64,000 nt of DNA from Eledone cirrhosa. Lineage: Eukaryota. The position numbers and the translations under genes were made by a program. The notes below the pieces were generated by a model. It did not search any database and was not told where the DNA came from. It was given only the letters and a program-made list of their open reading frames with translations. The DNA lies in assembly GCA_964016885.1 (NCBI GenBank), contig OZ024745.1, positions 96,968,001 through 97,032,000 on the forward strand, read 5' to 3'. Shown here piece by piece: positions 524 through 34,043 of the stretch (position 1 is the stretch's first letter; each line of letters starts with the position of its first letter).

Positions 524-1307
524 TTGTCTCGCTCGTTCCCCCTATTTACGTATCCCAACGACTTTCTTTAGCCGTTGCTCGCACTAACCAGAGGTATATG
601 GTCTTTAAAGCGATGAAATACCAATGAAGGCTGGAAGATCACTGATGAAGGGCTAAATTTATTCATATGTAACCCATATGCAGCCACGCAGCACGCCATG
701 TTTTCATATTTTTCATATATATATTTTCCTCCGCTGTGGCCCGTCTGTTTCTTTCCCACTGCTTCCCCTTTTCTCTGTATCTCTCACTTCCTTTTACCCC
801 CTCTACCAGTCACTCTCTCTGTTAGCCTCTTCCTCACACTTTCACTCACTCCCTCTCTGCTACTCCCTCTCCTACTTCCTCCCGTTTGATCTGTGCGAGA
901 TTCTTTCCTTACTCACATTTCGACCAGGTCGGATGGTCTTTATTCCCTCTCGTCTACGATTTCACAGAACTTATATTCATCGATTTCAGGGACTTGACTC
1001 CTTCTTCCTCCCGTTTGACCTGTGCGAAATTCTTTCCTTACTCACATTTCGACCAGGTCGGATGGTCTTTATTCTCTCTCGTCTACGATTTCACAGAACT
1101 TATATTCATCGATTTCAGGGACTTGACTCCTTCTTCCTCCCGTTTGACCTGTGCGAAATTCTTTCCTTACTCACATTTCGACCAGGTCGGATGGTCTTTA
1201 TTCTCTCTCGTCTACGATTTCACAGAACTTATATTCATCGATTTCAGGGACTTGACTCCTTCTTCCACCCGTTTGACCTGTGCGAAATTCTTTCCTTACT
1301 CACATTT
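524..1307 (+). mobile_element. Non-autonomous repeat family A copy (3' part followed by 5' part, partial tandem layout)
   Basis: 524-690 matches 4935-5075 and 12790-12926; 731-1000 matches 4501-4900; starts directly after a (TA)n tract. Confidence 0.7.
870..1307 (+). repeat. 129-bp tandem repeat, about 3.3 copies, inside family A
   Basis: ccgtttga recurs at 882, 1011, 1140 and 1269; this explains the 43-aa repeats in ORFs 678..1337 and 886..1311. Confidence 0.9.
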
Positions 1308-1478
1308 CTGAAACTTAGTTTCAGAAGATCCCGTTAAGGATGAAAGCAGCGATTCTTTGCTTAAAATTTAATCTGTTATTTTAATAAATATTTGCTCTAC
1401 GGTTCTTATATATCTGATATATATTTATCCTTATCAAGCCATCTTTGGATGTTAGTCTTCAAATGTATTATTATTACT
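1308..1478 (+). mobile_element. Family B short element (pLTR-like, HHR-like fold)
   Basis: Near-identical to 12051-12212 and 33881-34043; ends in (TA)n. Confidence 0.75.
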
Positions 1479-1523
1479 ATATATATATATATATATATAT
1501 ATATATATATATATATATATATT

Positions 1524-30789: not shown

Positions 30790-33683
30790 TACACAAAGTC
30801 ACAGATATGTATGTTTTGGCAACCATTCACGATGTGGCTGAATGATGAATTAATAAATTAAATAATCAGAACAATATACTATAAAGTATATCCATAGAAT
30901 CATTTGAGAATATATATACACCATTTCCTCTCCCAATTAGCATAATCAACCATACAAAAAAAACAATTAAACCAGGCTATACGATTAAAAGGTACCTATT
31001 AAGAAATAGTAGATAAATAAATGACAGCAATTTATTCGCGATCAACCGCTATAGAATATTTACCCAACATTTCAATAGCACGTGGAAATCGATTAAATAT
31101 ACCGCCAACCATACACAATTAGGTATAAAATGAAAGTTAGAAGAAAAATTGCATATACACAAACCAGGATTACGTTTCTACCCTTAGGCTTTCGTTCGCT
31201 TTCGGAAATATCCTATCAAGGATAAAATCTCGAGCTTCGAACGAACTTGCCAGGAAACAAACTCACTTGGACAAAGAATTTTCTTAAGTGATCCCCGCCA
31301 GTAACGAATTCTAAATGGCTAAGAACTGTGACGTGGCAGTGGTCAAGGCAGAAATAATATGATTGGTGGCTTACGGCGAGTGGGCTGGTTGCTAGAAAGC
31401 GTAGCCCAATATTGCCCAAATTGCATCTCAACTTTATGGGAGATTATCAAATATAAAGATTTACATATACACAAACTAGACAAAGTCACAGATATATATG
31501 TTTTGGCAACCATTCACGATGTGGCATTAATAAATTAAATAATCAGAGCAATATACTATAAAGTATGTCCATAGAATCGTTTGATAATATATATATACAC
31601 CATTTCCTCTCCCAAAAAAATAATTAAGTTAGAAGAAAAAAGTATATTGCTCTGATTATTTAATTTATTAATTCATCATTGAGCCACATCGTGACTGGTT
31701 GCCAAAACATATATATCTGTGACTTTGTCTAGTTTGTGTATATGTAAATCTTTATATTTGATAATCTCTCATAAGGTTGAGATGCAATTTGCGCAATATT
31801 GGGCTGCGCTTTCTAGCAACCAGCCCTCTCGCCGTAAGCCACCAATCACATTCTTTCTGACTTGACCACTGCCACGTCACAGTTTTTAGTCATTTTGAAT
31901 TAGTTTTTGGCGAGCATCACTTAAGAAAATTCTTTGTCCAAGTGAGTTTGTTTCCTGACACGATCGAAGCTCGAGAATTTATCCTTGATAGGATATTTCT
32001 GAAAGCGAACGAAAACCTAAGGGTAGAAACGTAATCCTGGTATGTGTATATGCATATTTCTTCTATCTTTCATTTAATACCTAATTTTGTATGATTGACG
32101 GTATATTTAATCGATTTCCACGTGCTATTGAAAAGTTGGGTAAATATTCTATAGCGGTTGATCGCGAATAAATTGCTGTCGTTTATTTATCTACTATTTC
32201 TTCATAGGTGCGTTTTAATCTCATAGACTGGTTTAATTGGTTTTGTGTGTGGTTGATTATGCTAATTGGGAGAGGAAATGGTGTATATATATTATCAAAT
32301 GATTCTATGGACATACTTTATAGTATATTGCTCTGATTATTTAATTTATTAATGCCACTTCGTGAATGGTTACCAAAACATATATATCTGTGACTTTGTC
32401 TAGTTTGTGTATATGTAAATATTTATATTTGATAATCTCCCATAAGGTTGAGATGCAATTTGGGCAATATTGGGCTGCGCTTTCTAGCAACCAACCCACT
32501 CGCCGTAATCCACCAATCACATTCTTTCTAACTTGACCACTGCCACGTTACAGTTCTTAGACATTTTGAATTCGTTTCTTGCGGGGATCACCTGAGAAAA
32601 TTCTCTGTCCAAGTGAGTTTGTTTCCTGACGAGTTCGAAGCTCGAGAATTTATTCTTGATAGGATATTTCCGAAAGCAAACGAAACCCCAAGGGTAGAAA
32701 CGTAATCCTGGTATGTGTATATGCATTTTTTCTTTTAACTTTCATTTTATACCTAATTGTGTATGGTTGACGGTATAATTTAATCGATTTCCAAGTGCTA
32801 TTGAAATGTTGGGTAAATATTCTATAGCGGTTGATCGCGAACAAATTGCTGTCGGTTATTTATCTACTATTTCTTCATAGGTGCCTTTTAATCTTATAGC
32901 CTGGTTTAATTGTTTTTTTGTGTGGTTGATTATGCTAATTGGGAGAGGAAATGGTGTATATATATTATCAAATGATTCTATGGACATACTTTATAGTATA
33001 TTGCTCTGATTATTTAATTTATTAATTCATCATTGAGCCACATCATGAATGGTTGCCAAAACATATATATCTGTGACTTTGTCTAGTTTGTGTATATGTA
33101 AATCTTTATATTTGATAATCTCCCATAAGGTTGAGATGCAATTTGGGCAATATTGGGCTGCGCTTTCTAGCAACCAACCCACTTTCCGTAAGCCACGAAT
33201 CACATTCTTTTTGACTTGACCACTGCCACGTCACAGTTCTTAGCCATTTTGAATTCGTTTCTGGCGGGGATCACTAAAGAAAATTCTTTGTCCAAGTGAG
33301 TTTGTTTCCCGACAAGTTCGAAGCTCGAGAATTTATCCTTGACAGGATATTTCCGAAAGCGAACGAAACCCTAAGGGTAGAAACGTAATCCTGGTTTGTG
33401 TATATGCATTTTTTCTTCTAACTTTCATTTTATACCTAATTGTATATGGTTGACGGTATATTTAATCGATTTCCACGTGGTATTGAAATGTTGGGTAAAT
33501 ATTCTATTGCGGTTGATTGCGAATAAATTGCTGTCGTTTATTTATCTACTATTTCTTCATAGGTGCCTTTTAATCTTATAGCCTGGTTTAATTGTTGTTT
33601 TTTTGTGTGGTTGATTATGCTAATTGGGAGAGGAAATGGCGTATATATATTATCAAATGATTCTATGGACATACTTTATAGTA
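30790..33683. mobile_element. Family G: inverted copy (30790-31615) plus three tandem units of about 670-680 bp (starts 31642, 32324, 32996)
   Basis: gtatattgctctgattatttaatttattaa recurs; one HHR per unit. Confidence 0.85.
32621..32701 (+). ncRNA. Type I hammerhead ribozyme (family G; the other copies have core mutations)
   Basis: gtttc CTGACGA gttcg...c(a/g)aac GAAA ccc-caa-ggg TA gaaac. Confidence 0.8.
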
Positions 33684-33804
33684 TATATATATATATATAT
33701 ATATATATATATATATATATATATATATATATATATATATATATATATATATATATATATTCCATCTGCTTCGAAACGTTCAGTTTCTTTACCGAAGTAT
33801 ATAT

Positions 33805-34043
33805 ATATTTATTAAAATAACAGATTAAAGTTTAAGCAAAGAATCGCTGCTTTCACCCTTAACGGGATCTTCTGAAACTGAGTTTCAGAAGATCCCGTTA
33901 AGGGTGAAAGCAGCGATTCTTTGCTTAAACTTTAATCTGTTATTTTAATAAATATTTGGTCTACGGTTCTTATATAACTGATATATATTTATCCTTATCG
34001 AGCCCCCTTTGGATTTTAGTCTTCAAATTTATTATTATTACTA
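33805..34043. mobile_element. Family B hairpin copy centred at 33880
   Basis: gggatcttctgaaact g agtttcagaagatccc palindrome. Confidence 0.8.

What the first reader, a model, noticed from the sequence alone, without database searches (positions are those of the whole stretch)
524..34043. A microsatellite-hosted community of at least eight dissimilar hammerhead-bearing elements
Seen: within 34 kb, HHR folds with unrelated stems occur at 3974/29411, 9961, 11588, 12035, 23516, 23902, 28424 and 32621. Nearly all sit in short non-coding elements bounded by (TA)n, with PLE-type inverted or partial-tandem ends, beside an intact Neptune-type RT/EN. Known: PLE pLTRs carry HHRs and several PLE clades prefer microsatellites. 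Inference: this genome hosts a large, probably uncatalogued set of ribozyme retroelements served by PLE enzymes, and repeated insertion may be expanding the (TA)n tracts.
Basis: partly seen in the sequence, partly recalled or inferred. Interest (0 to 1): 0.7.

Follow-up and report, generated by a model that had tools for sequence, protein, structure and literature searches.

The report
Penelope hammerheads, some in scrambled order
This stretch of animal DNA is a pile of Penelope-type retrotransposon ends lying in TA microsatellites: eight lineages carry ordinary hammerhead-ribozyme folds, and two further repeats carry the hammerhead parts in a scrambled order that is likely a non-circularly permuted ribozyme, a form so far reported almost only from environmental sequence.

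Summary
This is the known Penelope-like (PLE) pLTR / non-LTR-retrozyme picture. Inverted 5' ends, 39-nt tails, (TA)n targets and the U3-A8, U4C and U·U variants are published, as is an octopus HHR-bearing, TA-targeting PLE. Only one HHR is tied to an ORF (Neptune-type; RT/EN intact, ORF1 5'-truncated). TA flanks are not HHR-specific, and insertion-driven tract growth is not shown.

This is the non-circular 'SGC' order. An unrelated endonuclease-less PLE shows it with perfect stems. By eye, 14 of 53 published Naiad 3' ends, reported as lacking HHRs, show CSG or SGC order. Stem II of E/F is weak, covariation inside the window is nil, and no cleavage has been tested.

The parts
200..252 (-). HHR B (type I, canonical core, palindromic stem III); kin of family A
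   Evidence: (Rfam HH9 37.7 bits, below cut-off 52)
525..1308 (+). E1: partial-tandem non-coding element with 129-bp repeats, fused to D1; SGC-order HHR candidate about 573-660 (predicted cut after 598, core 642)
1306..1478 (+). D1: short HHR element with mutated stem II; 9-nt fold-back arm at its 5' end
1523..3197 (-). 5'-truncated, frame-broken second PLE (short CxxC-to-C spacer, Nematis-like); lone CUGAUGA at 1699 with no complete HHR found
3276..3482 (-). F1: SGC-order HHR candidate (core 3311, predicted cut 3355)
3609..4074 (-). A1: solo retrozyme-like monomer, HHR core 4009, internal TA run expanded to 34 units
4099..5072 (.). E2: 5'-inverted copy with 39-nt tail (core 4160, G12 lost) plus direct copy (SGC core 5050, predicted cut 5006)
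5760..5985 (+). F2: SGC-order HHR candidate (core 5946, predicted cut 5902)
8694..8873 (+). K: 180-bp element between TA tracts, type-I HHR core 8776
9641..10207 (.). L: fold-back element (1-nt spacer at 9963); type-I HHR with 97-nt stem II, cores 9957(-) and 9969(+)
10434..11670 (.). C: 436-bp inverted arms; HHR with U4C, cores 10586(-) and 11592(+); ends not at TA tracts
11934..12212 (.). D2: fold-back element, HHR with U4A, cores 11999(-) and 12056(+)
12571..12926 (+). E3: SGC-order HHR candidate (core 12904, predicted cut 12860)
18926..19172 (-). Inverted pLTR of the Neptune-type element, identical to 23421-23667; HHR core 19069
19173..20141 (+). ORF1 of the Neptune-type element, lacking about 120-150 N-terminal residues of its relatives; -1 slippery heptamer at 20075-20081
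20054..22387 (+). Open RT plus CX4CxxC linker plus GIY-YIG ORF (first ATG 20111)
23421..23706 (+). 3' pLTR with HHR J (U3-A8, core 23524, weak stem I) and 39-nt tail ending in (TA)n
23805..23990 (+). I: HHR core 23910, between a TA/TG tract and a Tc1/mariner-like remnant
27277..29087 (.). G: element with a 139-bp inverted 5' copy; HHR U3-A8, cores 27379(-) and 28429(+)
29178..30537 (+). A2: three tandem 428/438-bp units, each with an intact HHR and an internal microsatellite; 5' inversion
30771..33680 (.). H: inverted copy plus three tandem units of about 680 bp; only core 32626 intact (1 of 4)
33805..34042 (.). D3: fold-back element (1-nt spacer at 33880), cores 33874(-) and 33886(+)

Best explanation
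The 34 kb is a landing zone of 5'-truncated, inverted and tandem ends of Penelope-like retroelements in (TA)n tracts, likely copied in by several different PLE enzymes; eight lineages carry type-I hammerhead folds, and repeats E and F carry the hammerhead blocks in a scrambled order that is predicted to form a non-circularly permuted (SGC-class) ribozyme. Shown in the sequence: the folds, inverted pLTRs, tails, tandems, TA junctions, one open RT/EN ORF, and the block order with stems I and III in E/F. Inferred from the PLE literature: the GIY-YIG nuclease nicks AT-rich or (TA)n DNA; RT primes there and starts inside the pLTR RNA (giving the tail); it truncates or folds back (giving inverted arms); HHRs with palindromic stem III (6 of 10 subfamilies) would cut as dimers or with protein help, trimming tandem transcripts to units. 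Inferred here: in E/F the cleavage strand comes first, GAAA next and CUGAUGA last, and the stem II partner sits upstream, giving a pseudoknotted core that would cut 66 nt (E) or about 80 nt (F) before the element's 3' end.
For: Type I: 21 hits vs mean 0.33 in 300 shuffles. A/B alignment: 6 of 16 pairs change on both sides, 0 of 500 shuffles reach this, slid controls 0-1 (almost all from one B-versus-A comparison). PLE anatomy. Neptune-type nuclease spacer of 24 aa, as in 52 of the 78 of 120 relatives with the motif, matching the Neptune rows of Craig Fig. S2. SGC order: 6 hits (5 E/F, 1 chance hit in a tandem repeat) vs mean 0.07, max 2; GCS and CSG 0. With cores fixed, shuffles pass in 85-198 of 20000 per copy. 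92% of cells pair vs 34-60% slid; the changes seen in stem III keep pairing as G-U. Independent case: L003, an endonuclease-less PLE, has SGC order with 7-bp stem III and 8-bp stem I, score 40, against a best of 27 in 25 shuffles of all 42 loci. By eye in Craig File S5: 6 nematode Naiads have a full CSG hammerhead and 8 others the S-G-C order, of 53 ends seen. Octopus Naiad ends share the 23-nt GAAA-to-CUGAUGA spacing of E/F. Craig's methods note unexplained 'HHR_core' and 'half_core' motifs.
Against: No activity data. E and F are homologous (72% over 169 nt), so the window gives one lineage, and the SGC descriptor was written after I saw it. The E/F alignment has 0 of 19 pairs changed on both sides, and covariation is no higher than shuffled. 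F's stem I has two mismatches (-0.9 kcal/mol). Stem II does not form with the strand after CUGAUGA (1 bp); the upstream partner (4-6 bp) has two possible registers and lacks G10.1-C11.1. One of 4 E cores has lost G12. The Naiad ends were read by eye only; 39 of 53 showed nothing of the kind in the roughly 280 nt shown. U4A (family D) has no activity precedent in my search. In one PLE tested in vitro, HHR cleavage was not needed for insertion (Frangieh 2024). Inverted snippets also flank TA tracts in segments with no ribozyme.
Confidence: 0.62

Rival explanations
1. Only the type-I part is real, and it is an ordinary PLE/retrozyme graveyard; E/F are dead or partial cores whose apparent stems I and III are a local hairpin plus chance.
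For: No double-sided covariation in E/F, weak stem II, weak F stem I. One lineage in the window; post-hoc descriptor. Craig 2021 found no HHR in Naiads even with relaxed descriptors.
Against: Independent L003 case with 15 perfect pairs placed exactly around U-H. Different sequences give the same three helices in Naiad ends by eye. The descriptors Craig's methods describe did not include permuted orders.
Confidence: 0.25
2. One reading: one Neptune-type enzyme like the neighbouring ORF mobilises all the short elements, and repeated insertion lengthens the (TA)n tracts.
For: Open RT/EN with the linker proposed to drive microsatellite bias. 19 of 26 HHR-element ends lie at TA. Weak L-to-J 3'UTR match.
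Against: No short family shares J's pLTR. A second PLE clade lies in the window. Hydra and Naiad elements also target (TA)n in octopus. TA runs inside family A vary by slippage. No empty sites are available.
Confidence: 0.1
3. The inverted arms come from DNA fold-back repair at fragile (TA)n tracts, or from assembly, and not from retrotransposition; the HHR pieces were caught passively.
For: Inverted templated snippets next to TA tracts in non-HHR DNA: 3166-3197/7203-7234, 8538-8617/9128-9207, 9209-9246/9641-9678, 33764-33798/34640-34674.
Against: Family 3' ends recur at the same base (3 of 3 D copies; E2 and E3). 39-nt tails occur at one end only. Several arms have diverged (86-99%), which argues against an assembly artefact.
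Confidence: 0.08

Closest known systems
PLE pLTR minimal/atypical type-I hammerheads (Cervera and de la Pena 2014, PMC4209133; parts 1-2 of 4 read)
   Same: Heterogeneous families per genome, palindromic stem III, extra base at 9/10.1, U3-A8 covariation, solo motifs from truncated PLEs, paired motifs on opposite strands 100-700 bp apart.
   Different: The local density, a family-wide U4A core (D) and a 97-nt stem II (L) are not in the parts I read; Lunse 2017 on PLE variants was not held.
Non-LTR retrozymes (Cervera 2020, PMC7229834, passages; Li 2026 bioRxiv 10.64898/2026.07.22.740005, parts 1-2 of 5 and passages)
   Same: A2 has three tandem units each with a complete type-I HHR, and a solo monomer occurs too; unit lengths 428-680 bp fall within Li's 51-972 bp; Li derive retrozymes from PLE pLTRs.
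   Different: 5' inversions and TA junctions mark A2 and H as PLE-style insertions; A carries an internal microsatellite; no mollusc is mentioned in Li's text; circular RNA is untested.
Neptune, Hydra and Naiad PLEs (Craig 2021, PMC8557442; sections 6 and 15, passages, supplement parts)
   Same: (TA)n targets, inverted pLTR, 30-40-bp tail, linker Zn finger. Hydra-1_Obim is an octopus TA-targeting PLE with a listed HHR; the Fig. 1 legend mentions an ORF1 frameshift.
   Different: The paper reports no canonical HHR in Naiads; the permuted reading of their 3' ends is new here. None of five E/F/D/L motifs occurs in its supplement.
Non-circularly permuted hammerheads, types SGC and CSG (Eckert 2023, PMC10085705; part 1, sections 13 and 15, passages)
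   Same: Block order S-G-C, conserved cores, stems I and III, short linker from the stem I strand to the stem II strand.
   Different: Theirs come from metatranscriptomes and metagenomes, none from a genome of a known organism apart from one bacterial GCS candidate, and they have a contiguous stem II. In E/F the stem II partner appears displaced upstream, splitting their C block. Theirs were shown to cleave; these were not tested.

Membership tests
Type-I hammerhead ribozyme (families A-D, G-L) | Core CUGANGA or a known variant, then GAAA, then UH, in the order C-G-S with stems I-III | tested here: met
   U3-A8 known; U4C and U10.1-U11.1 known; U4A not found in search
Type-I hammerhead ribozyme (families A-D, G-L) | Covariation of stems | tested here: inconclusive
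   Met for A/B (three independent sequences); the other families are too few or too alike
Type-I hammerhead ribozyme (families A-D, G-L) | Site-specific self-cleavage | not testable with these tools
   bench assay needed
Type-SGC permuted hammerhead (E/F) | Block order S-G-C with intact cores | tested here: met
   5 of 6 copies
Type-SGC permuted hammerhead (E/F) | Stems I and III placed around U16.1-H17 | tested here: met
   E: 8 and 5-6 bp; F: 6 of 8 and 5 bp
Type-SGC permuted hammerhead (E/F) | Stem II between the strand after CUGAUGA and the strand before GAAA | tested here: not met
   1 bp only; an upstream partner gives 4-6 bp; L003 gives 4 bp after a 4-nt insert
Type-SGC permuted hammerhead (E/F) | Covariation | tested here: inconclusive
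   0 of 19 pairs change on both sides within E/F; stems are compensatory against L003 and Naiad ends only by manual comparison
Type-SGC permuted hammerhead (E/F) | Self-cleavage | not testable with these tools
   bench assay needed
Neptune-clade PLE (J) | RT followed by C-terminal GIY-YIG with CX2-5CxxC linker | tested here: met
   24-aa spacer like the Neptune rows, unlike the Nematis rows, of Craig Fig. S2
Neptune-clade PLE (J) | pLTR with HHR, inverted 5' copy, 30-40-bp tail | tested here: met
Neptune-clade PLE (J) | Placement in an RT tree with named references | not tested
   no named reference proteins among stored sequences
Non-LTR retrozyme (A2, H) | At least two consecutive tandem units with a complete type-I HHR, non-coding | tested here: met
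   A2: 3 of 3 units. H fails: 1 of 3 tandem units
Non-LTR retrozyme (A2, H) | Expressed linear and circular monomer RNA | not testable with these tools
   no RNA data
Non-autonomous Naiad derivative (E/F) | Sequence homology to the 3' end of an autonomous Naiad | tested here: inconclusive
   Same layout and 23-nt spacing as Naiad_Obim/Ovul by eye; no exact motif match; no alignment run

The most novel reading that the evidence does not exclude
Penelope-like retrotransposons are the genomic home of non-circularly permuted hammerhead ribozymes. The E/F repeats here, an endonuclease-less PLE and many Naiads (thought to lack hammerheads) use SGC/CSG-class, pseudoknotted cores, some with the A9-to-10.1 link replaced by a helix, a four-block layout not described before.
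Probability: 0.55. Interest if true: 0.82.

Novelty: new variant of a known kind. Interest (0 to 1): 0.62.

Why it matters
The finding as written is a dense but ordinary example of PLE hammerheads and retrozymes (about 0.35 on its own). The permuted layout would matter more. It would place non-circular hammerhead permutations in animal genomes and in a known mobile element. It would remove the stated exception that Naiads lack hammerheads, which has been used to argue that the ribozyme is dispensable or parasitic. It would mean that genome scans with type I-III descriptors undercount ribozymes. It can be tested with one transcription-cleavage assay. Separately, the conserved Phe-Leu near the end of ORF1 (51 of 58 relatives) points to a programmed -1 frameshift in this PLE clade.

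Tried and rejected
Rfam found almost nothing: one sub-threshold HH9 match among the rows shown, the rest mostly microsatellite noise. I first rejected site 9961 because stem II was capped at 75 nt and reversed this. Site 36914 was rejected, and the SGC hit at 10039 was set aside as a product of the 35-bp tandem. Reading E/F as type II or type III, or as a type I with GAAA deleted, failed by inspection. GCS and CSG orders: 0 hits in the window and in 42 loci. Lone cores at 1699, 11860, 13842, 14489, 15169, 25156, 26445, 34348, 35047, 35615, 36587 and 36605 gave no full fold. No short family linked to J's pLTR. No further PLE coding remnants were found with 270 relatives, apart from the nuclease at 2157-2417. 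A pseudoknot after the slippery site was not found (only a 4-bp hairpin). A DNA-level test of the frameshift in relatives failed: the first scan found no locus, and of the 42 loci of the second only 2 showed the RT start motif, with no slippery heptamer upstream (one of the two has only 135 nt upstream). Free-energy z-scores are unremarkable for 7 of 9 HHRs folded. Lunse 2017 and Arkhipova 2017 were not held. Repbase, Dfam, the host genome, metagenome contigs and viral contigs stayed unchecked.
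Full report
Setting. The first 37 kb are short repeats separated by microsatellites (16% masked); from 37.4 kb on the window is mainly 67-bp and 51-bp satellite. Several SINE copies resemble the octopus tRNA-derived SINEs; this is recalled and comes from no call, so the host group is only likely.

Check of the hammerheads. Rfam gave one sub-threshold hammerhead match among the 150 of 185 rows shown (site 240, HH9, 37.7 bits against 52). I wrote a type-I descriptor allowing U3-A8 and N4 cores, palindromic stem III and a mismatch at 10.1-11.1; its thresholds were set after seeing the sites. 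With stem II up to 220 nt it gave 21 hits in 1-37450, against mean 0.33 (max 3) in 300 shuffles, 0 in the reversed sequence and 0 in the satellite half. I dropped 36914, leaving 20 motifs in 12 insertions, plus a decayed D copy at 1322. They fall into 8 lineages: A/B, K/L, C, D, G, H, I, J. Stem III is a perfect palindrome in A, B, C, J, K and L, the dimer-type architecture of Cervera 2014. A and B differ by compensatory changes in 6 of 16 pairs, though this rests on three independent sequences. Against: the HHR fold is 7-9 kcal/mol above the MFE in C, J and L, and 3 of 4 H cores are broken.

Anatomy. J (18926-23706) has an open 777-codon RT/GIY-YIG frame with 1648 relatives at E<=0.001, an exact 247-bp inverted pLTR and a 39-nt tail. 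Its linker CxxC lies 24 residues before the next Cys, as in the Neptune rows of Craig's Fig. S2. It is not a whole element: ORF1 is cut by the inversion and lacks about 120-150 residues of its relatives. ORF1 overlaps the RT frame at -1 across a U UUU UUA heptamer. F[L/F] lies in the last 45 residues of 51 of 58 ORF1 relatives of 330 aa or more (of 150 fetched), against 7 and 6 of 58 in control windows; a programmed frameshift is likely. Craig's Fig. 1 legend mentions such a frameshift, but I could not see for which clades, and searches found no other paper. A2 (three 428/438-bp units, all with intact HHRs) meets Li 2026's definition of a non-LTR retrozyme; H is a decayed one. A second, broken PLE with a 7-residue spacer (Nematis-like) lies at 1523-3197.

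Microsatellites. Ends within 5 bp of (TA)5+: 19 of 26 for type-I elements, 9 of 10 for E/F, 12 of 14 for segments with no ribozyme, 1 of 14 for SINEs, background 2.2%. The TA association is real but not specific to hammerheads, and it is circular for single-copy segments. It is also published: Craig lists (TA)n targets for most Hydra families, including Hydra-1_Obim with its HHR, and for three octopus Naiads. Family A has a U-U first pair and a 4-bp stem II, like the listed Hydra HHRs (by eye). No short family matches J's pLTR. Family A carries internal TA runs of 3-12 units in the tandem and 34 in the solo copy, so elements can seed tracts that then slip; growth by insertion is not shown.

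The permuted layout. E (four cores in three insertions) and F (two insertions) end in CUGAUGA with no GAAA after it; the GAAA lies 23 nt before. Upstream of it, GGUAU-H pairs with the AUACC that follows GAA (stem III), and the strand after H pairs with the strand before CUGAUGA (stem I). This is the order S-G-C of Eckert 2023. A scan for the three non-circular orders gave 6 SGC hits (5 E/F, 1 chance hit), 0 GCS and 0 CSG, against 0.07-0.09 per shuffle. In the E/F alignment 92% of cells pair, against 34-60% when slid, but no pair changes on both sides and covariation is no better than shuffled; E and F are one lineage. Stem II fails in Eckert's sense; the strand before GAAA instead has a 4-6-bp upstream partner.

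Two outside lines support the layout. First, among 42 PLE-RT loci recovered from prokaryotic assemblies (probable eukaryotic contaminants, highly redundant), the scan found 2 type-I and 1 SGC hit, and none in reversed sequence. The SGC hit lies in L003, an RT without a C-terminal nuclease and with telomere-like repeats, just upstream of a further open frame; its 7-bp and 8-bp stems score 40, against a best of 27 in 25 shuffles of all 42 loci. Second, reading by eye about 280 nt at 53 of the 54 Naiad 3' ends in Craig's File S5, six nematode families (Nbra-1, -2, -3, Hcon, Hpol, Asuum) show a complete C-S-G hammerhead with all three stems, and eight (Bfor, Amil, Aacu, Anas, Ptep, Obim, Ovul, Esco) show S-G-C. 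In Bfor, the three Acropora families and Obim/Ovul, an upstream strand gives a 6-bp stem II with G10.1-C11.1; the Bfor stem I is short and the Esco and Ptep stem II is uncertain. Several of these families are near-identical, the other 39 ends showed nothing of the kind, and none of this was computed. Craig's methods record such cores as not fitting any descriptor.

Prior art. Searches found no paper reporting permuted hammerheads in PLEs or a hammerhead survey of octopus; the octopus repeat annotation of 2026 does not use the words ribozyme or hammerhead. Eckert state that none of their RNAs came from genomes of known organisms, except one bacterial candidate. Lunse 2017 and Arkhipova 2017, both on PLE ribozymes, were not held and may describe some of these variants; the supplements of the Li preprint were closed. 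What I saw: Cervera 2014, Frangieh 2024 and Li 2026, first two parts (plus passages of Li); Bonar 2026, first part and passages; Craig 2021, two sections, passages and supplement parts; Eckert 2023, first part, two sections and passages; Perreault 2011, Cervera 2020, Arkhipova 2013 and PMC13725137, passages only.

Mechanism and verdict. The most likely account is target-primed insertion of PLE RNA ends into (TA)n by several PLE clades, with internal initiation giving tails (Frangieh) and self-priming giving head-to-head arms (Arkhipova 2013); the ribozymes would trim tandem transcripts, though HHR cleavage was not needed for insertion in the one in vitro system. The scrambled E/F motif is the part that deserves work: about 0.55 that it is a functional permuted hammerhead shared across PLEs. 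Overall interest 0.62.

Noticed in passing
window 20075-20081; ORF1 19173-20141: U UUU UUA heptamer joining ORF1 to RT/EN at -1; Phe-Leu near the C-terminus in 51 of 58 long ORF1 relatives against 6-7 of 58 in controls: likely a conserved programmed frameshift. The RT frame also has its own ATG at 20111.
   Followed up: partly
window 1316, 9963, 33880: Fold-backs with a 1-nt spacer exactly 6 nt before C3, at the base of stem I, in D1, L and D3. The two long ones are the only non-microsatellite 1-nt-spacer palindromes with arms of 11 or more. Possibly RT run-off at an RNA end there; only two families.
   Followed up: partly
L003 4396-4480: SGC-order hammerhead with perfect stems I and III in an endonuclease-less PLE with telomere-like repeats, in a record titled as a bacterial MAG (probable eukaryotic contaminant).
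   Followed up: partly
Craig 2021 File S5, not in the window: 3' ends of bivalve and hemichordate Naiads look like HDV-type ribozymes (recalled resemblance, untested); the main text does not mention HDV.
   Followed up: no
window 3166-3197 / 7203-7234; 8538-8617 / 9128-9207; 9209-9246 / 9641-9678; 33764-33798 / 34640-34674: Short inverted copies of neighbouring sequence at TA tracts, suggesting local template switching or inversion breakpoints.
   Followed up: no
window 7203-8617: 5'-truncated non-LTR RT fragment (CR1/L2-like by recall; Pfam RVT_1) with TA tracts at both ends.
   Followed up: no
window 5245-5429, 6006-7034, 12235-12532: Palindromic or inverted segments between TA tracts with no ribozyme found; 12235-12532 has a 32-bp one-sided extension like a PLE tail.
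   Followed up: no
window 23995-24826: Tc1/mariner-like transposase remnant (DUF4817) abutting HHR I.
   Followed up: partly
window 18024-18461: LINE fragment with a weak zf-RVT match.
   Followed up: no
window 37453-64000: 67-bp and 51-bp satellite arrays, the latter with a higher-order repeat of about 9.1 kb (near-identical ORF translations 9126 bp apart); no HHR and no (TA)n. The cluster may lie at a heterochromatin edge.
   Followed up: no
loci L001-L042: PLE reverse transcriptases in GTDB prokaryotic assemblies, many from one record set: probable host contamination.
   Followed up: no
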